A stretch of 64,000 nucleotides of DNA. It comes from a bacterium. Its GTDB lineage: Bacteria > Actinomycetota > Acidimicrobiia > Spongiisociales > ZC4RG35. Position numbers and translations under genes: made by a program. Under the pieces are notes generated by a model. The model was not told the origin of the DNA and searched no databases. It saw only the letters and a program-made list of their open reading frames with translations. Shown here piece after piece: positions 3,335-57,424 of this stretch (its first letter is position 1; each line of letters opens with the position of its first letter). Location of the stretch: contig JAHEDH010000001.1 in the NCBI GenBank assembly GCA_024641285.1, positions 4,135 through 68,134 of the forward strand, read 5' to 3'.

Positions 3335-3495
3335 CGGGAACGAGACAGACCTTCATCCGAGGTTGTGATTCGTCACGGACGGCGAGGCGACCTGGCTCGG
3401 CCCCGAAGGGCTCCACAGTTGCGGGACAGCGCCGGGTTCGCACCGGACTTCGCTCTCCGACCGTGTCCGGCGGTTGTGCCGGATACCGGCACGCT
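3335..3495 (-). ncRNA. Cobalamin (B12) riboswitch
   Basis: Minus-strand reading contains GGAGAGCGAAGUCCGGUGCGAACCCGGCGCUGUCCCGCAACUGUGG...GAGCCAGGUCGCCUCGCC, matching the conserved cobalamin-riboswitch core (GGUG.GAA.CCGG.GC.GUCCCGC.ACUGU) and the GCCAGG..CCUGCC B12-box region. It sits 5' of a B12/iron-type ABC uptake operon plus cobO. Boundaries are approximate. Confidence 0.7.
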
Positions 3496-3545
3496 AGCGA
3501 TCCGCCGAGGCCCCTGCACGGTGCAGCGCACTACCGTCGGATGGA

Positions 3546-6418: not shown

Positions 6419-7639
6419 TTACCTCGCAGGGGGCTCATACAAACCTGGTACATCAATATCCGATGACCCGTAAAACTCGGGTAAACGGTCGTCGCTCATC
6501 GGAGGGGTGGAAGGGTCGGGCCCCTCGGGAAGGGCGATGGACAGGATCGACCCTCCTCCGGGCCGGATCGATGCAGAGAACCTCCCGGCGTGCATCGCAA
6601 CGATCTGTCTCACGATTCCCAGGCCCATCCCTCCGTTGCCGTGGTCGCCGTTGAGTGCGAACTCGACGTCGATGCCGGGTCCCTCGTCGAGCACGCCGAG
6701 ATAGGTCCATTCGCCCTGGCGTCTCACGACGACCCTGACGGCTGCTCCATCAGGGCTCTCGCGTACCGCATTGTCGACGAGATTCCCGATCGCCCGCCGC
6801 AACAGATTGGCGTCTGCGGCAACGGTGAGCGGCGCCGACGGGAGATCCCCCACCACCGAGACCCCACCCGCGCGAGCGGTCGGGCCGAAGTCTGCGACGA
6901 GCTCTGCGACGACTGCGCCGGGATCGATCGGGGTCAACGTGGAACCGGCGAGTTCCCGGCGTGCGACCGCCAACAGGTCGTCGACCATCACCGAGATCCG
7001 ATCCGCGGCTCGCTCGACGATCTCGCCGGTCTGTCGCCAGTCTTCGATCGTTGCGTCCGGATCGTGTGCGATGATCTCGAGGTTCGATCGGATCACGGCG
7101 AGCGGGGTGCGGAGGTCGTGCGACGTGTGCGCAAGGAACCGCTGTTGCGACCGGAACGAACCGGACAACCGGTCGAGCATCGCATCGAACGTGTTCGCCA
7201 TGCGGGTCAGCTCGTCATCGGGACCGTCGAGCGCGATGCGCCGATCCAGGTCGGTCGCCTCGATCTCGCGGGCAACGGACGTGATCTCATCGATCGGACG
7301 GAGCGACCGGCTCGCAACGATCCAGCCGACGATCAGCGAGAGAGCGAACAACGCCAGCATGATCGCGATGGTCCAGATCGCGAGCTGATTGAGGACGGCC
7401 TCCTTGAAGAAGCTCTCGATCGTTCGCATCTCCACCTGGGTCAGCCGGATGGCGACCCGCTCCCCGTCGACGAGGACCGGCTCGAGAGCCCGTTCGGTCA
7501 CGGTGAGCGACTGCACGGCGCGCAGAGTGACGAAGTAGATGCCGGCGAGCGCCAGGCCGGCAACGCTGAAGACGAGGGCCGATGTGAGGCCCGACAGCCG
7601 GAACCGGAGCGAACGTGTCACGGGTGGCAGTTGCATCAA
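6419..7639 (-). CDS. Sensor histidine kinase (MprB/CseC-like)
   Basis: Two TM segments and a HAMP-like region; H-box SHDLRTPL; N/G boxes (GNLVDNAVR, GGMGLGIVRQIV). Confidence 0.85.
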   Translation of the reverse strand: MMQLPPVTRSLRFRLSGLTSALVFSVAGLALAGIYFVTLRAVQSLTVTERALEPVLVDGERVAIRLTQVEMRTIESFFKEAVLNQLAIWTIAIMLALFALSLIVGWIVASRSLRPIDEITSVAREIEATDLDRRIALDGPDDELTRMANTFDAMLDRLSGSFRSQQRFLAHTSHDLRTPLAVIRSNLEIIAHDPDATIEDWRQTGEIVERAADRISVMVDDLLAVARRELAGSTLTPIDPGAVVAELVADFGPTARAGGVSVVGDLPSAPLTVAADANLLRRAIGNLVDNAVRESPDGAAVRVVVRRQGEWTYLGVLDEGPGIDVEFALNGDHGNGGMGLGIVRQIVAMHAGRFSASIRPGGGSILSIALPEGPDPSTPPMSDDRLPEFYGSSDIDVPGLYEPPAR

Positions 7640-7678
7640 GTCTCGAAACTATCCGCCCGTCGATAACGCACGCGTAAA

Positions 7679-8356
7679 TCAGCGGAGCACATACCCGCGC
7701 CCGGGCACCGTCTCGATGACTTGAGGCTCACCCAGCTTCTTGCGGAGGTTCGAAACGGTGACCCTGACGGTGTTCGTGAACGGGTCGGCCATCTCGTCCC
7801 ACACGTGCTCGAGGAGTCGCTCTTGGCTGAGCACTTCGCCCCGATGCCTCATGAAGTACTCGAGAAGGGCGAACTCCTTGACCGTCAGGGAGAGCGGTAC
7901 CTGGGCACGGGTCGCGACGAATGCCGCCGGGTCGAGAGCGAGGTCGCCGGCGAACAGCACCGGGGTGCCCCCGGACTCCCGTCGTAACAGCGCTCGAACT
8001 CTCGCCTCCAGTTCGGCGAACGCGAATGGCTTGACGAGGTAGTCGTCGGCACCGGCATCCAGCCCTGCGACTCGGTCCTCGATGGAGTCGCGTGCAGTGA
8101 GCATCAGCACCTTCGGCTCGAGCGATCCGAAGGTCTCCACATCGCCCGACCGCATCCGAGCGCACAGGTCGATCCCTCTGCCATCCGGGAGGTTCCAATC
8201 GAGGACCACCAAGTCGTACTCGACCGTCGAGACTGCGATCTCGGCTTCGAGAACGGACGCGACCGAATCGACCGCATGGCCACTGCGGCCGAGGCCACGT
8301 ACGATCGCCGAGGCGAGGTCTGGTTCGTCTTCCACCACCAAGAGGCGCATCGCCAC
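7679..8356 (-). CDS. OmpR-family response regulator
   Basis: REC domain (LLVVEDEPDL...DLVVLDWNLPDG) plus a winged-helix output (LTVKEFALLEYF...GRGYVLR). Confidence 0.9.
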   Translation of the reverse strand: MAMRLLVVEDEPDLASAIVRGLGRSGHAVDSVASVLEAEIAVSTVEYDLVVLDWNLPDGRGIDLCARMRSGDVETFGSLEPKVLMLTARDSIEDRVAGLDAGADDYLVKPFAFAELEARVRALLRRESGGTPVLFAGDLALDPAAFVATRAQVPLSLTVKEFALLEYFMRHRGEVLSQERLLEHVWDEMADPFTNTVRVTVSNLRKKLGEPQVIETVPGRGYVLR

Positions 8357-8449
8357 CGAACTGTATCGACGCCGCCGGCGGGCCGGGACCGACGACGCCG
8401 CTCGACCTGATCGATGGGTCGGTGCCGTGGCTCACTACATTCGTCGACG

Positions 8450-10777
8450 ATGAAGAAGCGGACACCGGTGCAACTGCCCGAGGAGATCTATCCCGACGAT
8501 CCGTGGGTTCTTCTCGAGGACCAATTCGCTCCCGACTTCCTGTACCTGACCGAGACGATCTTCGCGCTCACGAACGGCAGGATCGGTGTCCGCGGGTCGC
8601 TCGACGAGGGCGACCCGCACCACATCATCGGCACCTACATCAACGGCTTCCACGAGACCTGGCCGATCACGCACGCCGAGAGCGCATACGGGTTGGCCGA
8701 GGTGGGTCAGACGATGGTCACGATCCCCGACGGCACCCTCATCGAGGTGACGGTCGACGGCGAGCCGTTCCATCTGCCTTCGGTCGAGATCATCCGGTGC
8801 CGGCGGTGGCTCGACATCCAGCGGGGCATCCTGGAGCGGGACATCGCATGGAAATCACAGTCCGGCGTGACCGTCGAGATGCGTTTCCTCCGTTTCGTGT
8901 CGCTCGGCAGACCGGATCTCATCGTGTCCAGACTGGAGCTGTCCGTTGACATGCCGGCCGAGGTCACCGTCGTATCCAGGCTCCGCAACCGACTGGACGA
9001 GGTGGCCGATGCCGGCGACGAATCCGATCCCCGATTGGCGAAGCAGTTCTCCCAGCGGGTCCTGGAGCCGCGGGCCGCAACGCTCGAGGACTTCCGTTTC
9101 GTCCAGGCATGGGTGACATCGAGGTCCGGCATGGGACTGTTGTCGGGAATGGACCACGGTTTGTCGGGGCCGACACCCAGGGTGACACTCGACCGATCGG
9201 CGATGAACTTCGGCTTCGAGTTCTCGTGGAGCCTGACACCGGACGCAGGGGTGACGATCGACAAGTACGTCGTCGCCTCGGACAACGGCGATTCACCCGG
9301 GCTGGCGGAGCGACAAGCGATCGGGGCGACGCTCGACGAGGCCAAGGAACGGGGAGTCGCCGGCCTCGCCGCCGATCAGGCGCGTCATCTGGCCAGATTC
9401 TGGGCGGACAACGACATCGTCATCGAGGGCGCGGACGTCGAGACGCAGCGGGCGGTGCGGTGGACGCTGCTCCAGTTGCACTCGAACTCCGCTTGCCTCC
9501 GACACGCGAGCATCCCGGCCAAGGGACTCACCGGGCACGCCTACGACGGCCACTACTTCTGGGACACCGAGATCTACATCGTCCCGTTCCTGATCTACAC
9601 CAACCCGGCTGCGGCTCGAACCGTGCTCACACATCGATACGAGATGCTCGAACACGCCAGGGAGCGCGCCCGTGTCCTCTCACACGACGGGATCCTCTTT
9701 CCGTGGCGCACCATCAACGGGGAAGAGGCGTCCGCCTACTTCCTGGCAGGCACCGCCCAGTACCACATCAACGCGGACATCGTCTACGCGATCAGGAAGT
9801 ACGTCGAGGTCACAGGAGACCAGGAGTTCCTCTGGGAAATGGGCGCGGAGATCGTCCTGGAGACCGCCAAGTTCTGGCTCGACCTGGGCTTCTACCGGTC
9901 CGACCACTTCCACATCCATGGGGTGACGGGCCCGGACGAGTACACCGCACTGGTCGACGACAACGCCTACACAAATGCAATGGCGCGGATGAACCTCCGA
10001 TACGCCTTCGAGGTGGTCTCTCATCTGTCGAATGAGGACCCGGATCGATGGGACGACCTTCGAGCCAAGGTGGGGATCGCCGATGGGCAGGCGATCGAGT
10101 GGAGACTCGCCGCGGATGCCATGTACATCCCCCACGATCGCGATCTCGGGATCACACCCCAGGACGACGACTTCCTCGAGAAGGAGGCCTGGGACTTCGA
10201 GAACACGCCGGAATCGAAGTACCCGTTGCTGCTGCACTTCCACCCGCTCACCATCTACCGGTTCCAGGTGCTCAAACAGGCGGATGTCGTGCTCGCCGAC
10301 TTCCTGCTCGGCGAGGAGTTCAACCCCGAGCTGAAGCGGGCCAACTTCGACTTCTACGACCCGCTGACGACCGGGGACTCATCACTCAGCGCGTGCATCC
10401 AGGCGATCATGTCGGCGGAACTGGGGTACGAGTCGGCCGCGATGCGGCACTTCCAACACGCGCTGTACATGGACCTCGGCGACATCGCCGGCAACACGAC
10501 CGACGGCGTGCACATGGCGTCGGCCGGCGGGGTCTGGATGGCTTTGATCTACGGTTTCGCCGGCATGCGCGACGTGCGCGGGACGATCTCGTTCGACCCC
10601 AGGATGCCGAAGCAGTGGACATCGATGACCTTCCGTCTGGGCGTCCGAGGCGGCGCGCTCTCGGTCACGTTGAGCCACGAATCGATCACGCTTGTTTCGG
10701 GGCAGCCGATCGAGGTGATCGTCCGAGGCGACAGCCACACCGTCGAGCCGGGGGGCGGGACGGTCGTCCACCTCTGA
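8450..10777 (+). CDS. Glycoside hydrolase family 65 phosphorylase (kojibiose/trehalose/maltose-phosphorylase-like)
   Basis: About 775 aa; GH65 central catalytic region including GHYFWDTEIYIVPF. Start ambiguous (ATG 8414 or 8450). Confidence 0.8.
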   Translation: MKKRTPVQLPEEIYPDDPWVLLEDQFAPDFLYLTETIFALTNGRIGVRGSLDEGDPHHIIGTYINGFHETWPITHAESAYGLAEVGQTMVTIPDGTLIEVTVDGEPFHLPSVEIIRCRRWLDIQRGILERDIAWKSQSGVTVEMRFLRFVSLGRPDLIVSRLELSVDMPAEVTVVSRLRNRLDEVADAGDESDPRLAKQFSQRVLEPRAATLEDFRFVQAWVTSRSGMGLLSGMDHGLSGPTPRVTLDRSAMNFGFEFSWSLTPDAGVTIDKYVVASDNGDSPGLAERQAIGATLDEAKERGVAGLAADQARHLARFWADNDIVIEGADVETQRAVRWTLLQLHSNSACLRHASIPAKGLTGHAYDGHYFWDTEIYIVPFLIYTNPAAARTVLTHRYEMLEHARERARVLSHDGILFPWRTINGEEASAYFLAGTAQYHINADIVYAIRKYVEVTGDQEFLWEMGAEIVLETAKFWLDLGFYRSDHFHIHGVTGPDEYTALVDDNAYTNAMARMNLRYAFEVVSHLSNEDPDRWDDLRAKVGIADGQAIEWRLAADAMYIPHDRDLGITPQDDDFLEKEAWDFENTPESKYPLLLHFHPLTIYRFQVLKQADVVLADFLLGEEFNPELKRANFDFYDPLTTGDSSLSACIQAIMSAELGYESAAMRHFQHALYMDLGDIAGNTTDGVHMASAGGVWMALIYGFAGMRDVRGTISFDPRMPKQWTSMTFRLGVRGGALSVTLSHESITLVSGQPIEVIVRGDSHTVEPGGGTVVHL

Positions 10778-16669: not shown

Positions 16670-18220
16670 TTGATCCACACCAGCACGTTGCCCGAAGTCG
16701 AGATCCCGGACATCGCGATCACGCCGTTCGTCCTGCGGATGGTGCCGCAGCTGGCCGACCATCCTGCGATGATCGACGGCCCGACGGGGCGGACCTACAC
16801 CTACGCGCAACTGGCGGACGCCACCGCTCGCGTCGCAGGCGGGCTGACGGCGAGCGGCTTCGGACGCGGATCGACGCTTGCCGTGCTCCTCCCGAACATG
16901 CCCGAGTACTTCCTGGCATTCCACGGTGCTGCGATGGCGGGCGGGACGGTCACGACCATCAACCCCACGTACGGCCCGTCGGAGGTCAACCACCAGTTGA
17001 TCGATTCGGGTGCGGGCTCGCTGGTGACCATCCCGATGTTCGTCGAGACGGCGAGAGCAGCGGTCGAAGGGACGAACGTGGAGACGATCTACGTCATCGG
17101 GGATGCGCCCGAGGGGACGACGCCGTTCGCCACCCTGATGCAGGCCGAGCCGCTCGCCGACCAGGCCGAGGTGGACGTCCACGAGGACGTGATGGTGCTG
17201 CCATATTCGTCCGGCACGACCGGTCTTCCCAAGGGCGTCATGCTGACGCACAACAACCTCGTCGCCAACATCGTCCAGACGGAGCCGATCCTCGAAGTCA
17301 AGGCGGGTGAGGAGCGGGTGATCGCCGTGCTCCCGTTCTTCCACATCTACGGCATGGAAGTGTTGATGAACGCCGTGATCGCCAGGGGCGGCACCGTCGT
17401 GACGATGCCGCGTTTCGATCTCGAAGAGTTCCTCACCCTCATTCAAGATTCGGGCATCACGATCGCCTACGTCGTGCCCCCGATCATCCTCGCACTGGCG
17501 AAACACCCGATGGTCGATCAGTTCGATCTCTCCTCACTGCGATTGGTGTTCTCTGGCGCCGCCCCCCTCGGCGCAGAGGTCGCCCTCGAGGCAGCAGCGC
17601 GGATCGGTTGCGACGTCGTCCAGGGCTACGGAATGACCGAGCTCTCTCCGGTGACCCACTCCACGCCGATGGGCGGGTTCAAACCGGGTTCGATCGGACT
17701 CACCATCTCGAACACCGAGGTTCGGATCGTCGACCCCGAGACCGGTCAGGACCTTGGAATGGACGAGGACGGCGAGTTGTGGATCCGCGGCCCTCAGAGG
17801 ATGAAGGGCTACTTGAACAATCCGGAGGCAACTGCGATCACCATCGATGAGGACGGCTGGCTCCACACGGGCGACATCGGCCACGTCGATTCCGACGGCC
17901 ACTTCTACATCGTCGACCGGCTCAAGGAGCTCATCAAGTACAAGGGGTTCCAGGTCCCGCCCGCCGAGCTCGAGGCGCTCCTGCTGACCCATCCCGCGGT
18001 GGCCGACGCAGCGGTCATCGGCGTCCCCGACGAGGAGGCCGGCGAGCTCCCGAAGGGGTTCGTCGTCCTGAAGCCCGGCGCCGAGGCGAGCGAGGGCGAC
18101 ATCAAGGAGTTCGTGGCCCAGGCGGTTGCTGGGTACAAGCAGCTCCGAATCGTCGAGTTCATCGACGTGATCCCGAAGTCGGCCAGCGGGAAGATCCTCC
18201 GCCGCGAACTTCGGAGCTGA
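16670..18220 (+). CDS. AMP-dependent acyl-CoA ligase (FadD / 4-coumarate-CoA ligase family)
   Basis: AMP-binding motifs YSSGTTGLPKGV, GYGMTE, TGDIGHVDSDGHFYIVDRLKELIKYKG. Confidence 0.85.
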   Translation: MIHTSTLPEVEIPDIAITPFVLRMVPQLADHPAMIDGPTGRTYTYAQLADATARVAGGLTASGFGRGSTLAVLLPNMPEYFLAFHGAAMAGGTVTTINPTYGPSEVNHQLIDSGAGSLVTIPMFVETARAAVEGTNVETIYVIGDAPEGTTPFATLMQAEPLADQAEVDVHEDVMVLPYSSGTTGLPKGVMLTHNNLVANIVQTEPILEVKAGEERVIAVLPFFHIYGMEVLMNAVIARGGTVVTMPRFDLEEFLTLIQDSGITIAYVVPPIILALAKHPMVDQFDLSSLRLVFSGAAPLGAEVALEAAARIGCDVVQGYGMTELSPVTHSTPMGGFKPGSIGLTISNTEVRIVDPETGQDLGMDEDGELWIRGPQRMKGYLNNPEATAITIDEDGWLHTGDIGHVDSDGHFYIVDRLKELIKYKGFQVPPAELEALLLTHPAVADAAVIGVPDEEAGELPKGFVVLKPGAEASEGDIKEFVAQAVAGYKQLRIVEFIDVIPKSASGKILRRELRS

Positions 18221-34496: not shown

Positions 34497-34567
34497 TCCG
34501 TGTGGTTCCAAACGATCGAAGTGACCCAAGAGCCTCTTGCGTGTTGCGACCGTTGGTCGTAGGGTCA

Positions 34568-34593
34568 TTAACCAGATGGTTAAGGCATCTGGT
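34568..34593. promoter_or_regulatory. Nested inverted repeats TTAACC-agat-GGTTAA and CCAGATG-N8-CATCTGG between the photolyase and TetR genes; candidate TetR operator
   Basis: Read directly from the sequence; lies in the 103-bp divergent intergenic region. Confidence 0.4.
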
Positions 34594-34599
34594 GAGGAC

Positions 34600-35157
34600 A
34601 TGCGAACGGTGATCGTCCGATCCACCGTCGAGCTCATCGGCGAGATCGGTTGGAGCGAGATCACGACCCGCAAGGTCGCCCAGCGGTCGGGTGTCAACAA
34701 CGCCCTCATCCACTACTACTTCGGCTCCAAGGAGGCGCTGCTCCGAGAGGCCGTGCTCACCCTGTTCGGCGAGGAGTTCGAGCGGCCGCTGTCTGCGATC
34801 CTCGCAGCAGACGACATCTTCACCGGCCTCGACGAGCTGTTCGAGGCCATCGGCGAGCTGGACATGACCCAAGTCCGGCTCGTCGCGCTCAGCGAAGCGA
34901 TGCTCCAGGGCGTACGTGACGACGTGATTCGCGGCTGGATCCAGCAGGTCCTCGATGAGACGGTGGACCGCCTGGCCGCCCTCATCTCCGCCGGCCAGAA
35001 CGCACATCGCGTCAGAGCCGATCTCGATGCCGCAGGCGCCGCGCTGGTGATCGTCGGCCTGATCGACGCCCTCGTCCTCTACAGGTTCAACCATCCCACG
35101 CTCGACCTCGAACCATCGAGGCGGGCCGTCCACACGATGCTCGCGCCACAGGAGTAG
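34600..35157 (+). CDS. TetR/AcrR-family transcriptional regulator
   Basis: HTH TRKVAQRSGVNNALIHYYFGSKEALL. Start ambiguous (ATG 34537, 34576 or 34600); 34600 leaves the palindrome intergenic. Confidence 0.7.
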   Translation: MRTVIVRSTVELIGEIGWSEITTRKVAQRSGVNNALIHYYFGSKEALLREAVLTLFGEEFERPLSAILAADDIFTGLDELFEAIGELDMTQVRLVALSEAMLQGVRDDVIRGWIQQVLDETVDRLAALISAGQNAHRVRADLDAAGAALVIVGLIDALVLYRFNHPTLDLEPSRRAVHTMLAPQE

Positions 35158-35161
35158 ATCG

Positions 35162-35890
35162 ATGACCACGAAAGCGACGACCACCACCGAGATCCACCTC
35201 TCCGACGTCTCGAAGACATACCGGGTCGGGGCGAGCGACGTGCACGCGCTGCGGTCGGTCGATCTGTCGATCGAACCTGGCCAGTTCGTCGTGATCCTGG
35301 GACCGAGCGGCTCCGGCAAGACCACGCTGCTGAATCTGATCGGAGCGATCGACACGCCGACGACTGGCTCCGTCGATGTCGGGGGCACCGATCTGGGCAG
35401 CCTGGACGAGACGGCCCGGGCGGCCTATCGAAGGTCATCGGTCGGGTTTGTGTTCCAGTTCTTCAACCTGATCCCGACGCTGACGGCCGCCGAGAACGTC
35501 GAGTTGATCGCAGAGCTCACCGATGGTGACAGTGGCGAGCGGGCGGAGGAGACGCTCGGGTGGGTCGGGCTGGCAGATCGGGTCGATCACTTTCCCTCTC
35601 AGCTGTCGGGCGGTGAACAACAGCGGGTGGCGATCGCACGGGCGCTGGCCAAACGCCCTCCGCTGTTGCTCTGTGACGAGCCGACCGGCGAACTGGACTT
35701 CGAAACCGGACGGTCGATCCTCGGTCTGCTCCGACGCCTCAATCGCCAGCACGGACAGACCGTGCTCGTCGTCACCCACAATGCCGCGATCGGGCAGATG
35801 GCCGATCGGGTCATCAGGCTGCATGCCGGCGAGATCTTCGACGACCGGCACGTGGACACTCCGATCTCGGCGGAGGAGCTGACCTGGTGA
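35162..35890 (+). CDS. ABC transporter ATP-binding protein (MacB/LolD/FtsE-like)
   Basis: GPSGSGKTT, LSGGEQQRVAIARAL, LLLCDEPTGELD; 4-nt overlap with the downstream permease. Confidence 0.85.
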   Translation: MTTKATTTTEIHLSDVSKTYRVGASDVHALRSVDLSIEPGQFVVILGPSGSGKTTLLNLIGAIDTPTTGSVDVGGTDLGSLDETARAAYRRSSVGFVFQFFNLIPTLTAAENVELIAELTDGDSGERAEETLGWVGLADRVDHFPSQLSGGEQQRVAIARALAKRPPLLLCDEPTGELDFETGRSILGLLRRLNRQHGQTVLVVTHNAAIGQMADRVIRLHAGEIFDDRHVDTPISAEELTW

Positions 35891-38223
35891 ACGTGCTTTC
35901 TCGCAAACTCCTCCGCGACATCGGCCTGCAGAAGACCCAGTTCGTCGCCGTCGCCGTCACGGTCTTCCTCGGTATCACGATGTTCGGAGCGTCTTACGAC
36001 TCGTTCCAGAACCTACAGGCCTCCTACGACGCAACCGCCACCCAGACTCGCTTCGCCAATCTGACCGTCGCAGGAGGGGACATCCCGGACTTCGTCTCGT
36101 TCGCCGAGTCGCAGCCGGGGGTGGAGAGCGTCGACACCAGGACGGTGGTCGACCTTCCATTCGATCTGCCCGACACGAAGCTCCTCGGACGGGTCGTTGG
36201 GATCCCCGATTCCGCGGCAGTCAATCTGCTGAGCATGCAATCCGGTTCGGTGCCGGCGCCGGGCGAGATCGCGCTGGAGGCTCACCTCGCCGACCACTTC
36301 CAGCTCGGAACCGGTTCTACGGTCTCGCTGCTCGGTCCGAACGGATGGGTCGATGCCCAGGTCTCGGGCGTCGCAGCCTCACCTGAGTACATCTGGCCGG
36401 CCAAGAGCCGCCAGGAGGTACTGACGACCCCAGACAACTTCGGTGTCGTGTTCGCGCCGGAAGCGGATGCTCGGAAGCTGGCCGGACTCGAGCAGCCGAA
36501 TCAGGCTGTCGTCTACTACCGCGACGGCCGGCCCGACGACGCTCTGACCGCGGCGCTCACCTCGGCGGCCGCAGGCGCGGTCGACGTGTACACGCGGGAA
36601 GAGCAGCCATCGAACTCTGCCTTGAAGGAGGACCTGGCCGGCTTCGAAGAGCTCTCCGTGTTCTTCCCGATCCTCTTCCTCACGGCCTCGGGCATGGCCG
36701 GATATGTGATGATCACACGCCTCGTGCAGGCGCAGCGGCCGCAGATCGGCATCATGCTCGCCAACGGCTTCACTCGGAGAACGCTGCTTCGCCACTACCT
36801 CGGATACGGCCTCGCGCCCGGCGTCGCCGGTGCGATCCCGGGAGCGATCGCCGGCAGCCTGCTCGCCAGAGTGATCACCGGTTACTACACCGACATCATC
36901 TCGGTGCCCGTGACGGTGGTGGAAACGCACCCGGTGGCAGCAGTCGTCGCCGTCGTTCTCGGGATCGGCGCCTCGCTCCTCGCAGCACTCGGCCCCGCAC
37001 TGATGGCATCGAGGGTCACGCCGGCAGAGTCGATGCGCGGATTTGCCCCGATTGGCGGCGGACGACCGAGCATCATCGAACGTCTCGTCCCTGCGGCAAG
37101 TCGGATGCCGATTCGTTGGCGGATGGGCCTGCGCGGTATCGAGCGAAACCCCCGCCGAACGATATCCACGATCCTCGGCGTGGTGCTGTCGCTGATCCTC
37201 GTCCTCGTTTCCTGGGGGATGATCGACACGATCCAGCAACTCATGAACTTCCAGTTCGACCAGATCGAGGTCCAGGACGCCCGCGTCTACTTCGATGGAC
37301 CTGTCGACGAGTCCGCCATCAGCGCACTGACCACGGTCGACGGTGTGGCGAGCGCCGAACGGTCGGCGCAGATCCCTGCGTCTGTCACGTCCGGATCCAA
37401 CGTGCTCTCGACCGCCGTGATCGTCCTCCCTGCCGATACGAGGATGCACGGGTTCTTCGACGCCCACCACGATCCGATCACGTTCGACCAGAACGGCGCT
37501 CTGGTATCGCAGGGAGTCCTCGACTCGACCGGAGCAGTTGTGGGCGGTGACCTGGAGGTCACGGTTGCCGGCGTGGGCAGCATCACGGTTCCGGTAGCAG
37601 GAGCGGTCGACGAGCCACTCGGATCGTTCGTGTACATCACGTTCGACGAAGCTCAGCAGCTCGCCGGGATGCCGGTGCCTGCGACCGCCGCCCTCATCTC
37701 CTACGACGGTTCGGTGGACGCCTCGACGATCCGCCAGGCGATCCTCGATGACCCAGGGGTTGCCGCATTCGAAGACACCGAAGCACTTGCCGGAATGATG
37801 AGAGGATTCATGGGGCTGTTCTACGCGTTCGTCGGAGTGATGCTGGCCTTCGGCGCAGCGATGGCGTTCGCGCTCATCTTCAACTCGATGAGCGTGAACA
37901 TCGCCGAGCGCACACGTGAAGTCGGCACGTTGATGGCGGTTGGCGTGGATCGGTCGACGGTCTCCCGATTGGTCACCGTGGAGAACCTCGCCGTCGTCCT
38001 GATCGGCGTGCCGATCGGACTGATCGGCGGTTACTGGGTGTCGGCGGCTGCACTCGCCTCGTTCCAGTCGGACATGTTCCGCCTGACGTTGGACATGCGT
38101 CCGTCCACACTCATCCTGTCGGCACTCGCCATGGTGATCGTGGCCTTGCTGTCCCAACGCCCAGGGTTGACGGCCATTCGGCGAATGGATCTCACCCGCA
38201 TCATCAAGGACCGCAGCTCGTGA
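35887..38223 (+). CDS. FtsX-family ABC permease with two FtsX/MacB-type domains
   Basis: 778 aa; duplicated large-extracytoplasmic-loop plus four-TM FtsX modules. Confidence 0.85.
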   Translation: MNVLSRKLLRDIGLQKTQFVAVAVTVFLGITMFGASYDSFQNLQASYDATATQTRFANLTVAGGDIPDFVSFAESQPGVESVDTRTVVDLPFDLPDTKLLGRVVGIPDSAAVNLLSMQSGSVPAPGEIALEAHLADHFQLGTGSTVSLLGPNGWVDAQVSGVAASPEYIWPAKSRQEVLTTPDNFGVVFAPEADARKLAGLEQPNQAVVYYRDGRPDDALTAALTSAAAGAVDVYTREEQPSNSALKEDLAGFEELSVFFPILFLTASGMAGYVMITRLVQAQRPQIGIMLANGFTRRTLLRHYLGYGLAPGVAGAIPGAIAGSLLARVITGYYTDIISVPVTVVETHPVAAVVAVVLGIGASLLAALGPALMASRVTPAESMRGFAPIGGGRPSIIERLVPAASRMPIRWRMGLRGIERNPRRTISTILGVVLSLILVLVSWGMIDTIQQLMNFQFDQIEVQDARVYFDGPVDESAISALTTVDGVASAERSAQIPASVTSGSNVLSTAVIVLPADTRMHGFFDAHHDPITFDQNGALVSQGVLDSTGAVVGGDLEVTVAGVGSITVPVAGAVDEPLGSFVYITFDEAQQLAGMPVPATAALISYDGSVDASTIRQAILDDPGVAAFEDTEALAGMMRGFMGLFYAFVGVMLAFGAAMAFALIFNSMSVNIAERTREVGTLMAVGVDRSTVSRLVTVENLAVVLIGVPIGLIGGYWVSAAALASFQSDMFRLTLDMRPSTLILSALAMVIVALLSQRPGLTAIRRMDLTRIIKDRSS

Positions 38224-38316
38224 ACGACCCGACCTTCGGCACTTGCCCAGACGGGACAACCGTCGCACATTGAGAGGAGACGCTCCGGAGACATCCGGCT
38301 GCGAGAAGGAGAACAC

Positions 38317-38461
38317 CATGGTGACACGAACTCAGAGACCGCTCCACTGGTTGGGCTTCCTCGGATTCCTCGGATTCCTCGGGTTCGAGTTCCCGCCCTT
38401 CTTCGCCTTCATGCCGTTCTTCCTGTTCTTCCTCTACCTGCGCCAACCGCATCGGCTCTGA
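38317..38461 (+). CDS. Candidate 47-aa Phe-rich hydrophobic mini-protein or leader peptide (MVTRTQRPLHWLGFLGFLGFLGFEFPPFFAFMPFFLFFLYLRQPHRL)
   Basis: ATG preceded 6 nt by AAGGAG (GAGAAGGAGAACACC-ATG); 16 of 47 residues are Phe; contains a 9-bp tandem repeat. Coding status unproven. Confidence 0.35.
38354..38389. repeat. 9-bp tandem repeat, about 4 units (GGCTTCCTC GGATTCCTC GGATTCCTC GGGTTCGAG) encoding GFL repeats
   Basis: Seen directly in the sequence. Confidence 0.6.
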
Positions 38462-38681
38462 GGGTCGGACCCTCGTCGAGGCGAGGCACCTGGGCAGGAG
38501 CGACCAGCCCGACTGACAACCGACTCTGTCGAAGCAGGCGAGGATGAGGTGAACTGCGTAGCGGTGGCCACCCCTGCTTAACTCAATCGCCTGATCTCCG
38601 AGGACCCCATGCAACCAGCGACGAACGCAGACCCGAGCACGGTACGCCGGCAACGGCTCTCGTCGGCGACCGACTGAAGCC

Positions 38682-40754
38682 GTGGCCAAGAGTCTCTACA
38701 TCGCATCCCTCGAGCCCAGAGCCGGCAAGTCGGTGGTCGCTCTCGGGTTGATGGAACTGCTGAGCGCCCGGGTGGAGCGCCTCGCCTACTTCCGGCCCGT
38801 GGTCCCGGAGACGGCCGATGTCCGCAGCGCCCTCATCCAGGCCCGATTCCCTGCCGCCGCCGTCGCCCATGCCTTCACCTCCGAGCAGGTCGAAGACCTG
38901 CTGGCCGACGGGCGCAACGACGACGTGTATCGCGGGATCCTCGAGCAGTACCGCAGTCTCACCCACGACGCCGACTTCGTGTTGTGCGACGGCACCGACT
39001 ACACGGGCGTCTCCGCCACCTACGAATTCGCCTTCAACGCCGAGGTGGCAAATCACCTGGGGGCTCCTGTCGTCGTCCTCATCAATGGCAATGGCCGAGA
39101 CGCCGAGGACGTCGTGGAGAGCGTCATGGTCGCCCGCGAGTCGCTGATTCGCGAGGGGTGCACACTGGCCGCGACCATCGTCAATCGAGTGGCGACCGAA
39201 GACCTCGAGGCGATCTCGACCGCCCTCGGAACCGTTCGGGGCCACGAACCGGAGTTCACGATCCCCGAAACACCGCTGCTTGGCATGCCGACCTTCGCAG
39301 AGGTGGTCGAGTCGATCGGCGCGATTCCCGTGATTCCGTCCGGCGAGGTGGAGGAGAACCGGGAGATCACCGGATACAAGATCGCCGCAATGTCGCTCCC
39401 GAACTTCCTCGATCACGTTGGCGAGGGATACCTCGTGATGGTCCCGGGAGATCGATCCGATCTCATCGCCGGGGCGGTGGCGAGTCGGGTCTCGACCACC
39501 TATCCCAACATCGCCGGGCTGATCCTCACGGGCGGGCTCGAGCCCGCCCATCAGGTGCTCGACCTCATCGAAGGCATCGAGGATGCCCGTATGCCGATCT
39601 ATGCGGTCGACACCGACACCTTCCAGACCGCCCGAGATGTCGCCGCCGTCACCGCAGTGATGCGCCCGTCGAGCGAGCGCAAGATCTCAACAGCCCTGGG
39701 CCTCTTCGAGCGCCACGTCGACGTCGAACTGCTCGCGGATCGCATCGATGTCACCAGGTCGGACCGGGTGACCCCGCTCATGTTCGAGTACGACCTGATC
39801 GAGCGGGCCCGCGCAGCCAACAAGCACATCGTGCTGCCGGAAGGCACCGACGACCGAATCCTCGATGCCGCCGAGATCCTCACCAGGCGCGCTGTCGTCA
39901 AGCTCACCCTGCTGGGAGAGGTCGAACGGATCGCCAAGCGCATCGCCGAACGGGGGCTCCCGCCCGGATCGGTGAAGATCATCGACCCGGCGACGTCACC
40001 GCTCCGCGAGCAACTGGCACGCCGGTATCAGGAGCTGCGGTCCCACCGGGGCGTCGCCATGGAGAACGCCCTCGACGTCATGCTCGACGTCAACCAGTTC
40101 GGGACGATGATGGTCGAGACCGGGCTAGTCGACGGGATGGTCTCCGGCGCCGCCCACACCACCCAGGCCACCGTGCGGCCGGCGCTGCAGGTGATCAAGA
40201 CCCGGCCCGGCGTGAGCATCGTGTCGTCCGTTTTCCTGATGCTGCTTGCAGACCGCGTGCTCGTCTACGGCGACTGTGCGGTGAACCCCAATCCGACCGC
40301 AGAGCAGCTCGCCGACATCGCCATCAGCTCCGCCGAGACCGCCGAGCGCTTCGGGATCGAGCCGGTGGTCGCCATGCTCTCGTATTCAACGGGCGCATCG
40401 GGCCAGGGTGAGGACGTGGAGCGGGTGCGGGAGGCGACCAAACTCGCGAGGGAGCGCCGCCCCGACCTGCGTATCGACGGGCCGATCCAGTACGACGCAG
40501 CCATCGATGCCTCGGTCGGCAGCAAGAAGCTGCCCGAGTCGAGCGTCGCCGGTCAGGCGACGGTGTTCATCTTCCCCGATCTCAACACAGGCAACAACAC
40601 CTACAAGGCGGTGCAGCGGTCCGCAGGAGCCATCGCGGTGGGACCGGTGCTGCAGGGACTGAACAAGCCCGTCAACGACCTGTCCCGCGGGTGTGAAGTT
40701 GCCGACATCGTCAACACCGTCGCCATCACCGCCATCCAGGCCGAGAACAGCTGA
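38682..40754 (+). CDS. pta: Phosphate acetyltransferase, long form with N-terminal DRTGG/P-loop-like domain
   Basis: 690 aa; C-terminal PTA catalytic domain (SRGCEVADIVNTVAIT). GTG start; stop overlaps ackA ATG. Confidence 0.85.
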   Translation: MAKSLYIASLEPRAGKSVVALGLMELLSARVERLAYFRPVVPETADVRSALIQARFPAAAVAHAFTSEQVEDLLADGRNDDVYRGILEQYRSLTHDADFVLCDGTDYTGVSATYEFAFNAEVANHLGAPVVVLINGNGRDAEDVVESVMVARESLIREGCTLAATIVNRVATEDLEAISTALGTVRGHEPEFTIPETPLLGMPTFAEVVESIGAIPVIPSGEVEENREITGYKIAAMSLPNFLDHVGEGYLVMVPGDRSDLIAGAVASRVSTTYPNIAGLILTGGLEPAHQVLDLIEGIEDARMPIYAVDTDTFQTARDVAAVTAVMRPSSERKISTALGLFERHVDVELLADRIDVTRSDRVTPLMFEYDLIERARAANKHIVLPEGTDDRILDAAEILTRRAVVKLTLLGEVERIAKRIAERGLPPGSVKIIDPATSPLREQLARRYQELRSHRGVAMENALDVMLDVNQFGTMMVETGLVDGMVSGAAHTTQATVRPALQVIKTRPGVSIVSSVFLMLLADRVLVYGDCAVNPNPTAEQLADIAISSAETAERFGIEPVVAMLSYSTGASGQGEDVERVREATKLARERRPDLRIDGPIQYDAAIDASVGSKKLPESSVAGQATVFIFPDLNTGNNTYKAVQRSAGAIAVGPVLQGLNKPVNDLSRGCEVADIVNTVAITAIQAENS

Positions 40755-41890
40755 TGCGCGTCCTGGTGCTCAATTGCGGCAGCTCGTCGATCAAGTACCG
40801 GCTGTTCGACGGCGAAGCGCCCGTGGCGAAGGGCATCGTCGAGCGAATCGGCCAGCACGACAGCGACGTGCCCGACCACCGGACGGGGCTCCGGCGGGTC
40901 CTCGAGGCACTCGCCCCTCACATCGCCGACAACGGCCTCGACGCCATCGGCCATCGGGTCGTGCACGGTGGCGAGGAGTTCGTGCAACCGACCTTGATCG
41001 ACGACGACGTGATCGAGCGCATTCGCGCCCAGATCCCGCTCGCCCCGCTCCACAACCCGGCGAACCTCCTCGGAATCGAAGTGGCCGTGGCGCTCGAACC
41101 GCAACTCCCGCAGGTCGCGATCTTCGACACGGCGTTCCACCGGACGCTCCCCCCGCGTGCCTTCCGATATGCCCTGCCGGAATCGACGTACCGGGATCAC
41201 GGCGTCCGGCGCTACGGCTTCCACGGCACTTCCCACGCCCATGTCGCCCAGCTCGCAGCAGAGCATCTCGGTCGCCATCTCGCAGATCTGAACCTCATCA
41301 CGTTGCACCTCGGCAACGGCGCCAGCGCTACCGCCATCGAGAAGGGGAAGAGTGTGGACACCTCGATGGGGATGTCTCCGCTGGAGGGGCTGGTGATGGG
41401 GAGCCGTTCGGGAGACATCGACCCGGCGATCGTCTTCCACCTGGAGCGTTCCGCCGGCATGACCAACGATGAGGTCGAGTCGATGCTGAACCGCCAGAGC
41501 GGGCTGCTCGGCTTGTGCGGCGACATGGATCTCCGCGAGGTGGATCGGAGAGCCGCCGGAGGCGACGCCGATGCCGCGCTCGCACTCGATGTGTACGGAT
41601 ATCGGGTCAAGAAGTACGTGGGCGCCTACCTCGCCGTGCTCGGCTCGGTCGACGCCGTCGTCTTCACCGGCGGCGTCGGTGAGAACCAGCCAGATATCAG
41701 GTGGCGCGCACTCGCCGGGATGGCCGGGCTCGGTGTCGAGCTGGACGCCGAGCTGAACCGCTCCGTCGACCTCTCTGCCGGGCCTGCGGCGATCCATGCC
41801 GCGGCGAGTCGCACTGCCGTGCTGGTGATCGCCACCAACGAGGAGCTGGAGATCGCCCGCCAGGTCCGCCAGGTCGTGCTCGCCGGCTGA
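40754..41890 (+). CDS. ackA: Acetate kinase
   Basis: MRVLVLNCGSSSIKYRLFD N-terminus; VHGG, HLGNGAS motifs. Confidence 0.9.
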   Translation: MRVLVLNCGSSSIKYRLFDGEAPVAKGIVERIGQHDSDVPDHRTGLRRVLEALAPHIADNGLDAIGHRVVHGGEEFVQPTLIDDDVIERIRAQIPLAPLHNPANLLGIEVAVALEPQLPQVAIFDTAFHRTLPPRAFRYALPESTYRDHGVRRYGFHGTSHAHVAQLAAEHLGRHLADLNLITLHLGNGASATAIEKGKSVDTSMGMSPLEGLVMGSRSGDIDPAIVFHLERSAGMTNDEVESMLNRQSGLLGLCGDMDLREVDRRAAGGDADAALALDVYGYRVKKYVGAYLAVLGSVDAVVFTGGVGENQPDIRWRALAGMAGLGVELDAELNRSVDLSAGPAAIHAAASRTAVLVIATNEELEIARQVRQVVLAG

Positions 41891-57157: not shown

Positions 57158-57424
57158 GATCGTTCCTCTCAGATCGTCGGTCTCGACGCGCTCTGAGTGC
57201 CCGCAGGCAGCTCATCGATCAGGCATTGGCACCGTCGTCGACGGTTGCCGCGGCTTCACAGGGCCTGTCCCTCCACCGCTCTTGATGAGCGCGTTCGACG
57301 CAGTATCGCCGAGAGCGCTCCGGCGAGCAAGCAACCGCGCCCGATATCCCGACGAGACTCCTCCGCGCACGATACGGTCGGGTGTCTCACACGCTCGAGG
57401 ACCGCCGAAAGGACTGATTGAGCC

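What the first reader, a model, noticed from the sequence alone, without database searches (positions are those of the whole stretch)
38290..38470. Phe-rich mini-ORF (16 Phe in 47 codons) with a strong RBS and a GFL-encoding 9-bp tandem repeat, between the FtsX ABC permease and pta-ackA
GAGAAGGAGAACACC-ATG opens an ORF MVTRTQRPLHWLGFLGFLGFLGFEFPPFFAFMPFFLFFLYLRQPHRL. Such extreme Phe content, with runs of TTC codons, is reminiscent of Phe-sensing attenuator leader peptides (pheL type). It could equally be a tiny hydrophobic membrane peptide co-transcribed with the MacB/FtsX-type pump, which are sometimes partnered by small membrane proteins. The opposite strand gives an implausible Glu-rich run-on ORF. 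A GC hairpin (CCTCGtCGAGG) follows the stop.
Basis: seen in the sequence. Interest (0 to 1): 0.55.

Follow-up and report, generated by a model that had tools for sequence, protein, structure and literature searches.

The report
Unannotated Phe-rich small membrane protein gene
The Phe-rich mini-ORF is a real, strongly conserved but unannotated gene for a 47-residue membrane peptide, a minimal relative of the uncharacterised DUF3796 family, that sits behind an ABC efflux pump; it is not a phenylalanine-sensing leader.

Summary
The ORF is real: window 38318-38461 (+), 47 codons, GAAGGAG Shine-Dalgarno 6 nt upstream, and a 9-bp TTCCTCGGA x3.3 repeat encoding (GFL)n. It has 12 Phe, not 16.

Four lineages of uncultured Acidimicrobiia carry it. 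Differences between them are almost all synonymous (dN/dS 0.02-0.14), so the peptide itself is under purifying selection.

It stays with the TetR-ABC-FtsX operon. In one relative about 7 kb of opposite-strand genes separate it from pta, and pta keeps its own conserved upstream block and uORF. No terminator or attenuator structure follows it. The pheL-type reading is therefore rejected.

A profile search finds 39 clusters of 38-88-aa hypothetical proteins sharing W-x-G-F-L-G-x-L-G-x-x-G-F-x-x-P-...-FFxFFLFF plus a basic tail. 32 of 38 match only Pfam DUF3796, over its N-terminal ~45 positions. The window protein itself is just below threshold (22.1 vs 24.8 bits).

AlphaFold gives a helix-kink-helix (pLDDT 75), with basic residues at both ends.

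Pump orthologs at 59-67% identity lack the mini-gene, and distant family members sit in unrelated contexts. A VraH-like accessory role for the pump is plausible but unproven.

Verdict: an ordinary kind of thing (a missed small membrane protein gene) and a new member of an uncharacterised family.

The parts
38305..38311 (+). Shine-Dalgarno sequence GAAGGAG, 6 nt upstream of the ATG
   Evidence: Read directly in the sequence. An AGGAG/GGAAGG core at the same distance from the start codon is kept in L014, L001 and L002/L008, while the rest of the spacer is only about 58% identical.
38318..38461 (+). Coding sequence of a 47-aa small membrane protein: MVTRTQRPLHWLGFLGFLGFLGFEFPPFFAFMPFFLFFLYLRQPHRL
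   Evidence: GC3 is 0.81 in this frame. dN/dS is 0.02-0.14 against three other lineages, and differences concentrate at codon position 3. There are 39 homologous clusters of small proteins. The Pfam DUF3796 match is sub-threshold at 22.1 bits. AF2 gives helices 9-24, 26-30 and 32-41 with pLDDT 74.6.
38357..38386 (+). 9-bp tandem repeat TTCCTCGGA x3.3, encoding the (GFL)n Gly-every-third-residue segment of helix 1
   Evidence: TRF result. The copy number varies in frame: four LGF units in the window, L014 and L001, and two in L002/L008. The Gly positions are the most conserved columns of the family.
38416..38433 (+). Second 9-bp repeat GTTCTTCCT x2, encoding the FFLFFL core of helix 2
   Evidence: TRF result. 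FFLFF is a near-invariant family motif.
34537..35157 (+). TetR-family regulator, first gene of the upstream co-oriented cluster (context)
   Evidence: Pfam TetR_N, E 1.5e-12. The same TetR-ABC-FtsX order is seen in L015 and L016.
35162..35890 (+). ABC transporter ATP-binding protein (context)
   Evidence: Pfam ABC_tran, E 6.7e-36. It starts 4 nt after the TetR stop and overlaps the FtsX start by 4 nt.
35887..38223 (+). 778-aa FtsX-type (MacB-like, two FtsX domains) permease. The mini-ORF starts 94 nt downstream on the same strand; this is the candidate partner.
   Evidence: Pfam FtsX, two stretches, E 2.7e-30. Orthologs at 75-88% identity are followed by the mini-ORF. Those at 67% and 59% are not.
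38471..38481 (+). Palindrome CCTCGtCGAGG after the stop codon. It is not a conserved element and is probably irrelevant.
   Evidence: Present in the sequence. The region 38462-38508 is the least conserved part of the spacer, at 16-21% identical columns with large indels. The fold z-score is -0.40, and the terminator scan found none.

Best explanation
Window 38318-38461 is a genuine, unannotated protein-coding gene. Its product is a 47-residue integral-membrane peptide.

Anatomy of the peptide:
- a short basic N-terminus (R4, R7);
- a first hydrophobic helix with Gly at every third residue, W-(LGF)4;
- an E-F-P-P kink;
- a second, Phe-packed helix (FFAFMPFFLFFLYL);
- a basic tail (RQPHRL).

It is a one-module relative of the N-terminal ~45 residues of the uncharacterised Pfam family DUF3796. 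It belongs to a thinly spread set of 38-88-aa 'hypothetical' proteins with the same motif.

The high Phe count and the 9-bp DNA repeat are consequences of this protein motif, not a regulatory codon run.

Inferred: it is translated from its own Shine-Dalgarno site as the last cistron of the TetR-ABC-FtsX efflux-pump transcript.

Inferred from what small membrane proteins generally do (AcrZ, KdpF, VraH): it acts inside the membrane by packing against a larger membrane protein. In this lineage the most likely partner is the co-encoded FtsX-type permease. I put that partner identity at only about 0.3.

Shown: coding status, purifying selection, family membership at motif/profile level, linkage to the pump rather than to pta, and absence of attenuator features.

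Inferred: co-transcription, membrane topology (probably both termini cytoplasmic, hairpin or re-entrant), and the partner.
For: Coding and selected:
- GC3 is 0.81 in frame, like the neighbouring genes.
- Codon differences are 12 synonymous: 1 non-synonymous against L014, 19:6 against L001 and 9:2 against L002/L008.
- Nei-Gojobori dN/dS is 0.02-0.14, with synonymous excess P from 2e-4 to 6e-9.
- The peptide is 98% and 95% identical where the neighbouring FtsX protein is 88% and 75% identical.
- The only indel is an in-frame loss of two 9-bp units.
- The SD and start codon are conserved, while the spacer around them is about 58% identical.
- The antisense frame stays open but accumulates amino-acid changes.

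Family:
- phmmer over 1.8 billion representatives finds 57-129-aa proteins with the same motif.
- A profile search finds 39 clusters.
- In the alignment, G19, G22, F34 and F37 are invariant, and G13, G16, L18, P26, F31 and F38 are nearly invariant.
- 32 of 38 members hit Pfam DUF3796 and nothing else. P0003 and P0006 exceed its gathering score.

Membrane peptide:
- GRAVY is +0.63.
- The hydrophobic core spans residues 9-41 and is flanked by +2 charge on each side.
- AF2 gives helix 9-24, a break at F25/P26, and helices 26-30 and 32-41, with pLDDT 74.6.

Linkage to the pump:
- The gene lies 94-96 nt behind the FtsX stop on the same strand in the window, L014 and L001, and 25 nt behind the upstream FtsX-like gene in L002-L006 as called there.
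- In L008 about 7 kb of opposite-strand ORFs (an opp/dpp-type ABC operon in the overlapping contig L002) lies between the mini-ORF and pta, not between FtsX and the mini-ORF.
- No terminator-like or promoter-like site was found in 37800-39000.

Precedent: VraH, a small membrane protein required for the full function of the FtsX-family VraDE transporter (PMC5786555).
Against: - There is no direct evidence of translation or of a transcript.
- TetR-ABC-FtsX orthologs at 67% (L015) and 59% (L016/L017) identity have no mini-ORF behind them; the gaps are 83 and 37 nt. The pump therefore does not generally need it.
- Distant family members follow unrelated genes: a Bmp/BPD_transp_2 ABC importer, a 262-aa and a 210-aa unknown protein, and a LiaF-TM-like protein. 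Others sit beside an IclR regulator or precede an alpha/beta hydrolase. This argues against one specific partner.
- Only one of 185,579 species genomes carries a close homolog, and two metagenome scans found none.
- The window protein itself scores below the DUF3796 gathering threshold. The two-unit variant of L008 does not hit DUF3796 at all.
- The two helices (about 13-16 residues each) are short for two full membrane spans. The L008 variant has an even shorter first helix, so the topology is uncertain.
Confidence: 0.7

Rival explanations
1. It is a dedicated third subunit of this FtsX/MacB-type ABC pump (VraH-like). The mini-protein binds the permease or ATPase and is needed for part of the pump's substrate range. 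This is the strong form of the partner idea, as opposed to a generic membrane peptide that merely shares the transcript.
For: - It has the same strand and a fixed short distance behind the permease in four lineages.
- It stays with the pump when the downstream neighbourhood is rearranged.
- It is more conserved than the pump itself.
- A second family member sits 28 nt behind the last permease gene of another ABC transporter (L020).
- There is the VraDEH precedent (PMC5786555).
Against: - Pump orthologs at 59-67% identity lack it.
- Most other family members are not next to any transporter.
- The two ABC systems it follows belong to unrelated permease classes (FtsX and BPD_transp_2).
- It has no sequence resemblance to VraH; the conserved YYKRREEKGK tail quoted in PMC5786555 is absent.
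Confidence: 0.25
2. It is a Phe-sensing leader peptide (pheL/pheM-type attenuator). Ribosome stalling at Phe codons would control transcription or translation of a downstream gene (pta-ackA).
For: - It has 12 TTC codons in 47, including four FF pairs.
- It has a strong SD and is a short ORF upstream of an operon on the same strand.
Against: - pta-ackA is not a Phe pathway.
- In L008 the mini-ORF is followed by a convergent gene and pta is 7 kb away.
- pta keeps its own conserved upstream block and uORF there.
- There is no terminator-like site.
- The downstream flanks fold no better than shuffles in four lineages, with z from -0.40 to +0.43, and are not alignable.
- There is no Rfam match.
- The most conserved columns of the family are Gly, not Phe. 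Phe positions are exchanged for Leu, Tyr, Val or Ile in relatives.
- One relative fuses the module to a winged-helix domain, so it is a protein module.
Confidence: 0.02
3. It is a self-acting membrane-damaging peptide (type I toxin, holin-like or leaderless-bacteriocin-like), with the adjacent ABC pump providing export or immunity.
For: - It is small and very hydrophobic with a basic C-terminal tail, a shape shared with holins and type I toxins.
- It lies next to an exporter under a TetR repressor.
Against: - There is no PHROG match for any of the 38 family members.
- There are no phage genes around it in the window.
- The strong SD and sense orientation in an operon, without a visible antisense promoter, are unlike type I toxin loci.
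- It has only four terminal Arg and no Lys, and it is not amphipathic, unlike leaderless bacteriocins.
- Most family members have no transporter nearby.
Confidence: 0.05
4. It is not a gene: a chance ORF created by a TTC-rich simple repeat in an intergenic spacer, or the antisense of a real Glu-rich gene.
For: - Its composition is low-complexity and it contains 9-bp repeats.
- The antisense frame is open in all four lineages.
- The exact sequence is absent from the 15-billion-protein collection.
Against: - dN/dS is 0.02-0.14, with third-position differences in the + frame.
- The antisense translation shows about 10 amino-acid differences between the window and L014 (my count from the two translations), where the + frame shows 1.
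- The flanking spacers are far less conserved.
- Gene callers did call it in L001, L002-L007 and L014.
- There are 39 homologous clusters across distant lineages.
Confidence: 0.03

Closest known systems
Pfam PF12676 (DUF3796), uncharacterised ~120-aa bacterial membrane proteins
   Same: It is the only Pfam family hit. The match covers residues 9-41 against profile positions 3-40. 32 of 38 family members match, and two exceed the gathering score. The shared motif is W/L-G-F-L-G-F-L-G-F ... P ... FFxFFLFF.
   Different: The window protein scores 22.1 bits, below the 24.8-bit cutoff, and covers only the first third of the 120-position profile. The proteins here are 38-88 aa with one module. The one DUF3796 gene described in the papers searched lies next to a helix-turn-helix gene (PMC11983580); here the neighbour is an ABC pump. 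The function of DUF3796 is itself unknown.
VraH of Staphylococcus aureus VraDEH (small membrane subunit of an FtsX-family BceAB-type ABC transporter)
   Same: It is a small transmembrane protein with a positively charged C-terminus, working together with an FtsX-family ABC transporter (PMC5786555).
   Different: There is no sequence similarity, and VraH's YYKRREEKGK tail motif is absent. Interaction with the pump is untested here. Pump orthologs at 59-67% identity lack the mini-gene.
NCBIfam NF041742 / NF038039 (WGxxGxxG family, WGxxGxxG-CTERM)
   Same: Both have a hydrophobic segment beginning with Trp and carrying Gly at every third position. 11 of 38 family members give weak matches, best E 2e-05.
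   Different: The window protein scores 11.9 bits against a cutoff of 35. The second Phe-rich helix and the x-x-P turn are not covered by the match, which spans only residues 10-23 of the window protein.
pheL / pheM-type Phe attenuator leader peptides
   Same: It is a short ORF rich in Phe codons with a good ribosome-binding site.
   Different: The genomic target is wrong and there is no terminator or antiterminator. The peptide is conserved at non-Phe residues, and the ORF is retained where nothing lies downstream.

Membership tests
Phe attenuator leader peptide (pheL/pheM type) | Short ORF with a run of consecutive Phe codons near its end | tested here: inconclusive
   12 TTC codons in 47, as four FF pairs and four single Phe. 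They are spread over codons 14-38 rather than forming a terminal run.
Phe attenuator leader peptide (pheL/pheM type) | Lies immediately upstream, on the same strand, of a Phe biosynthesis or Phe-tRNA synthetase operon | tested here: not met
   The downstream gene is pta-ackA. In L008 the next gene is convergent and pta is about 7 kb away.
Phe attenuator leader peptide (pheL/pheM type) | Followed by mutually exclusive hairpins ending in an intrinsic terminator | tested here: not met
   No terminator-like site was found. The downstream flanks have z-scores from -0.40 to +0.43 in four lineages. The flank is not alignable between relatives.
Phe attenuator leader peptide (pheL/pheM type) | Selection acts on the regulatory codons, not on the rest of the peptide | tested here: not met
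   dN/dS is 0.02-0.14 over the whole peptide. The Gly, Trp and Pro columns are the most conserved, and Phe positions are substituted by Leu, Tyr, Val or Ile in relatives.
Pfam DUF3796 (PF12676) | Score at or above the curated gathering threshold (24.8 bits) | tested here: not met
   The window protein scores 22.1 bits (E 2.2e-4), the L001 variant 21.3, and the L008 variant gives no hit. Relatives P0003 (29.8) and P0006 (34.2) pass. 32 of 38 match at E<=0.01.
Pfam DUF3796 (PF12676) | Full-length match to the 120-position profile | tested here: not met
   Only profile positions 2-46 are ever matched, and the proteins are 38-88 aa.
Pfam DUF3796 (PF12676) | Adjacent helix-turn-helix gene. This is not a curated criterion: the pairing is reported for one transposon variant in PMC11983580, and its generality rests on my own recollection. 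| tested here: not met
   There is no HTH gene next to the mini-ORF. The nearest is the TetR gene 3.2 kb upstream in the same cluster. One distant relative (P0004) fuses the module to a winged-helix domain.
Small accessory subunit of an FtsX-family ABC transporter (VraH-like) | Small membrane protein encoded next to the transporter genes on the same strand | tested here: met
   It lies 94 nt behind the FtsX stop in the window. The same arrangement is seen in L014, L001 and L002/L008.
Small accessory subunit of an FtsX-family ABC transporter (VraH-like) | Co-occurs with the transporter across its orthologs | tested here: not met
   It is present with orthologs of 75% identity or more. It is absent behind those at 67% (L015) and 59% (L016, L017).
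Small accessory subunit of an FtsX-family ABC transporter (VraH-like) | Physical interaction with the transporter and a phenotype that depends on it | not testable with these tools
   This needs pull-down or two-hybrid and deletion experiments.
NCBIfam WGxxGxxG family (NF041742) | Score at or above the curated cutoff (35 bits) | tested here: not met
   11.9 bits for the 47-aa protein and 13.3 bits for the 72-aa extension.

The most novel reading that the evidence does not exclude
The mini-protein would be the first recognised member of a class of Gly-every-third-residue / Phe-zipper peptides of 40-65 residues (single-module DUF3796-like). These would serve as dedicated intramembrane subunits or regulators of ABC transporters. 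The class is seen here behind an FtsX-type exporter, and in L020 behind a BPD_transp_2 importer. The in-frame 9-bp repeat slippage (two versus four GFL units) would tune the length of the interacting helix.
Probability: 0.12. Interest if true: 0.55.

Novelty: new member of a known kind. Interest (0 to 1): 0.3.

Why it matters
Small membrane proteins are routinely missed by genome annotation. This one is absent from a 15-billion-protein collection that does contain its neighbour.

Here a 47-codon gene is under stronger constraint than the 778-aa pump beside it. It also links a set of unnamed mini-proteins to the uncharacterised DUF3796 family. That gives DUF3796 a minimal, experimentally tractable module: one helix-kink-helix.

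If the peptide does modulate the TetR-controlled FtsX pump, it would add an actinobacterial example to the few known three-component FtsX-family systems (VraDEH).

For the scan itself the useful result is negative. Extreme Phe-codon content plus a strong RBS does not indicate an attenuator here.

Tried and rejected
- Rfam, with permissive E-values on 37500-39500 and gathering thresholds on the whole window: nothing at the locus.
- Sigma-70 promoter and intrinsic terminator scans of 37800-39000: none.
- Folding of the spacer after the stop codon in four lineages: no excess structure.
- Two metagenome-contig scans, one with peptide patterns and one with a 41-nt degenerate DNA pattern: no relatives.
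- Genome-contig scan: only one MAG.
- tblastn of a family member against the plasmid collection: no match, probably because of low-complexity masking.
- PHROGs on the whole family: no match.
- Foldseek of the AF2 model against the PDB: no match.
- Literature search for the motif GFLGFLGF and for small-protein partners of FtsX transporters: nothing relevant beyond VraH.
- The 72-aa TTG-start extension (38243) was considered and rejected. The region upstream of the ATG is only about 58% identical between lineages, has indels that are not multiples of three, and gives unrelated N-terminal extensions in the called genes of L001, L002 and L014.
- The antisense Glu-rich ORF was considered and rejected on the substitution pattern.

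Full report
**1. The observation**

The region was read directly and re-translated. An ORF runs from ATG 38318 to TGA 38461 on the + strand.

- The Phe count is 12 of 47 (all TTC), not 16.
- GAAGGAG lies at 38305-38311, 6 nt before the ATG.
- Tandem Repeats Finder reports TTCCTCGGA x3.3 at 38357-38386 and GTTCTTCCT x2 at 38416-38433.
- This is the only stop-free 47-codon stretch with 8 or more Phe in any of the six frames of the window.
- GC3 in this frame is 0.81, matching the flanking genes (0.81-0.86). The other two + frames give 0.57 and 0.38.

- TetR regulator, 34537-35157.
- ABC ATPase, 35162-35890.
- 778-aa FtsX permease, 35887-38223.
- A 94-nt gap, then the mini-ORF.
- A 220-nt gap, then pta (38682-40754) and ackA (40754-41890).

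Names attached to FtsX homologs place the window in an uncultured Acidimicrobiia bacterium.

**2. Is it a gene?**

A search of 5.8 billion proteins found two close homolog clusters. Their contigs, plus a contig found through the FtsX ortholog, give four independent lineages:
- the window;
- L014 (FtsX 88% identical);
- L001;
- L002-L008 (FtsX about 75% identical).

Codon-by-codon comparison gives these synonymous: non-synonymous codon differences:
- window vs L014: 12 : 1
- window vs L001: 19 : 6
- window vs L002/L008: 9 : 2

Nei-Gojobori dN/dS is 0.02-0.14 for all six pairs. The binomial P for synonymous excess runs from 2e-4 to 6e-9. Differences are concentrated at codon position 3, for example 1/1/11 for window vs L014.

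Other points in favour of a coding gene:
- The peptide is more conserved than the adjacent pump: 98% vs 88%, and 95% vs 75%.
- The one indel, in L002/L008, removes exactly two 9-bp units (LGFLGF) and keeps the frame.
- An SD core and a start codon (ATG, or GTG in L002/L008) are kept at the same spacing, although the spacer around them is only about 58% identical.
- The spacer just after the stop codon is essentially unalignable.
- The antisense Glu-rich frame stays open in all four lineages. This is expected opposite NNC-rich codons. I count about 10 amino-acid differences between the window and L014 in that frame (from the two translations), where the + frame shows one.

I conclude that the + frame is translated and the peptide sequence is what is selected.

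The exact 47-aa and 72-aa sequences are absent from the 15-billion-protein collection, although the neighbouring FtsX protein of the same NCBI contig is present. The gene is therefore evidently unannotated in its source record.

**3. Is it a Phe attenuator?**

No. The evidence is as follows.
- pta-ackA is not a Phe-related target.
- In the MAG contig L008 the mini-ORF (10001-10126) still follows FtsX (7570-9906). The next 7 kb hold only opposite-strand ORFs, and pta begins at 17441. The overlapping contig L002 shows that these ORFs begin with a DUF1028 gene and opp/dpp-type ABC genes.
- pta in L008 retains, directly upstream, the same conserved block (GCTGCTTAACTC ... CGAGGACCCGATGCA) and a 20-codon uORF. 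The window, L014 and L001 have these in front of pta too. So pta carries its own control region and the mini-ORF travels with the pump.
- No terminator-like site exists in 37800-39000.
- The sequence after the stop codon folds no better than shuffled controls in four lineages, with z from -0.40 to +0.43.
- Rfam finds nothing there.
- In the wider family the invariant columns are Gly19, Gly22, Phe34 and Phe37. Gly13, Gly16, Leu18, Pro26, Phe31 and Phe38 are nearly invariant. Several Phe positions are freely exchanged for Leu, Tyr, Val or Ile.

**4. What is it?**

*Family-library and homology searches*
- Pfam gives a single sub-threshold hit, DUF3796: 22.1 bits against a cutoff of 24.8, residues 9-41 on profile positions 3-40 of 120.
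- An exhaustive phmmer run over 1.84 billion representatives found four more distant proteins of 57-129 aa with the same motif.
- Two of them exceed the DUF3796 gathering score.
- One of them, P0004, joins the module to a C-terminal winged-helix domain.
- A profile built from these retrieved 39 clusters of 38-88-aa proteins. Where a source names them they are called only 'hypothetical protein', and none has a precomputed Pfam domain. The three with an organism label come from Acidimicrobiia or Actinomycetota MAGs; some of the others, with Lys-rich tails, look to me like low-GC lineages, which I did not check.

*The family motif*

The alignment shows this core: basic residue(s), W-x-G-[FL]-[LI]-G-[FL]-L-G-x-x-G-F, then x-[ND/F]-P, then x-x-[FY]-x-F-F-x-F-F-L-F-F, then a basic tail.

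- 32 of the 38 members match DUF3796 at E<=0.01, and no other Pfam family is hit.
- 11 of 38 give weak hits to the NCBIfam WGxxGxxG family. This reflects the shared Gly-every-third-residue segment.
- PHROGs gives nothing.

*Predicted structure*
- AlphaFold2 with this alignment predicts helix 9-24, a break at F25/P26, then helices 26-30 and 32-41. Mean pLDDT is 74.6.
- Foldseek finds no PDB match.
- The hydrophobic core (residues 9-41, GRAVY +0.63) is flanked by +2 charge on each side. By the positive-inside rule (established knowledge) this favours both termini in the cytoplasm, that is, a hairpin or re-entrant shape.
- The helices are short. The L008 variant shortens the first one further, so the topology remains open.

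The product is therefore a one-module relative of the N-terminal part of DUF3796. The Phe richness and the 9-bp repeat are the DNA image of that protein motif.

**5. How it probably works**

Shown:
- it is a conserved coding gene;
- the product looks like a membrane peptide;
- it is fixed to the 3' side of the TetR-ABC-FtsX cluster in four lineages.

Inferred:
- It is co-transcribed with the pump. No terminator- or promoter-like site lies in the 94-nt gap. That gap contains a small CCGG-loop-CCGG hairpin and folds somewhat better than shuffles, z -2.05.
- It is translated from its own SD.

By analogy with characterised small membrane proteins, I propose that it acts by packing against a larger membrane protein. 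One of these, VraH, works with an FtsX-family transporter (PMC5786555). The FtsX permease is the obvious candidate partner here.

The evidence limits this reading:
- Orthologous TetR-ABC-FtsX clusters at 67% and 59% identity are followed directly by other genes with no room for a mini-ORF. These are a Vgb-lyase-like gene after 83 nt and a beta-lactamase-fold gene after 37 nt.
- Distant family members follow or flank unrelated genes. One sits 28 nt behind a Bmp/BPD_transp_2 ABC importer (L020). Others are next to a 262-aa and a 210-aa protein of unknown family, a LiaF-TM-like protein, an IclR regulator, or an alpha/beta hydrolase.

My estimates:
- about 0.9 that this is a translated small membrane protein gene and not a cis-regulatory leader;
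- about 0.3 that the FtsX pump is its functional partner.

**6. Comparison with what is known, and novelty**

- The closest family by sequence is DUF3796, itself uncharacterised. The window protein fails its score threshold and covers only a third of its profile, so I call it a relative, not a member.
- The closest functional analogue is VraH. The genomic arrangement matches, but co-occurrence across orthologs fails and interaction is untestable here.
- The pheL-type attenuator fails three of its four defining features, and the fourth is inconclusive.
- No paper in the library mentions the motif.

The finding is a new, unannotated member of a known kind of thing: small hydrophobic membrane proteins of a DUF-level family. 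It is of modest interest.

**7. Verdict**

- Interest is 0.3.

Noticed in passing
window 38509-38677 (and L014:3924-4094, L001:926-1087, L008:17290-17442): pta has its own conserved upstream region. It consists of a conserved block (GACTGACAACCGACTCTGTCGA ... GGTGAACTGCGTAGCGG ... GCTGCTTAACTCAATC) followed by a GAGGA ribosome-binding site and a 20-23-codon uORF (window 38609-38677, MQPATNADPSTVRRQRLSSATD). The uORF start and length are conserved, but its peptide is not. Its stop lies 0-6 nt before the pta GTG start. This looks like a translationally coupled leader ORF for pta. No Rfam family matches.
   Followed up: partly
window 38231-38243 and 38281-38303: Two short conserved elements lie in the 94-nt FtsX/mini-ORF spacer. 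GACCTTCGGCACT follows the FtsX stop codon. A CCGG-loop-CCGG hairpin (ATCCGGCT conserved) lies just upstream of the SD. The spacer folds somewhat better than shuffles (z -2.05).
   Followed up: partly
L008:10149-17440 (and L002:2187-4936): In one relative about 7 kb on the opposite strand is inserted between the mini-ORF and pta. In L002 the genes are called as a DUF1028 gene followed by opp/dpp-type ABC transporter genes. This shows that the FtsX-miniORF / pta junction is a rearrangement point.
   Followed up: partly
L015:4412-5494; L016:6389-7483: More distant orthologs of the TetR-ABC-FtsX cluster are followed directly by a Vgb-lyase-like gene or a beta-lactamase-fold gene. This hints that the pump family sits in antibiotic-related contexts.
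   Followed up: no
L012:6001-6390 (protein P0004): A 129-aa protein fuses the W-LGFIGFLGFLGF...FFLFFLFF module to a C-terminal winged-helix DNA-binding domain (HTH_24, E 1.7e-07). It lies in a neighbourhood with HNH, methyltransferase, RadC and HARE-HTH genes that looks like a mobile element. It is possibly a membrane-tethered regulator.
   Followed up: no
window 57209-57291 (-) and 3364-3501 (-): There is a SAM riboswitch (74.9 bits) and a cobalamin riboswitch (34.2 bits, just above its gathering score) elsewhere in the window. No tRNA genes occur in the 64 kb.
   Followed up: no
L016:1-2241 (-): A second, divergently oriented cluster (HTH_MmpR5-like regulator, ABC ATPase, FtsX permease) lies right next to the orthologous TetR-ABC-FtsX cluster in a related Acidimicrobiia MAG.
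   Followed up: no
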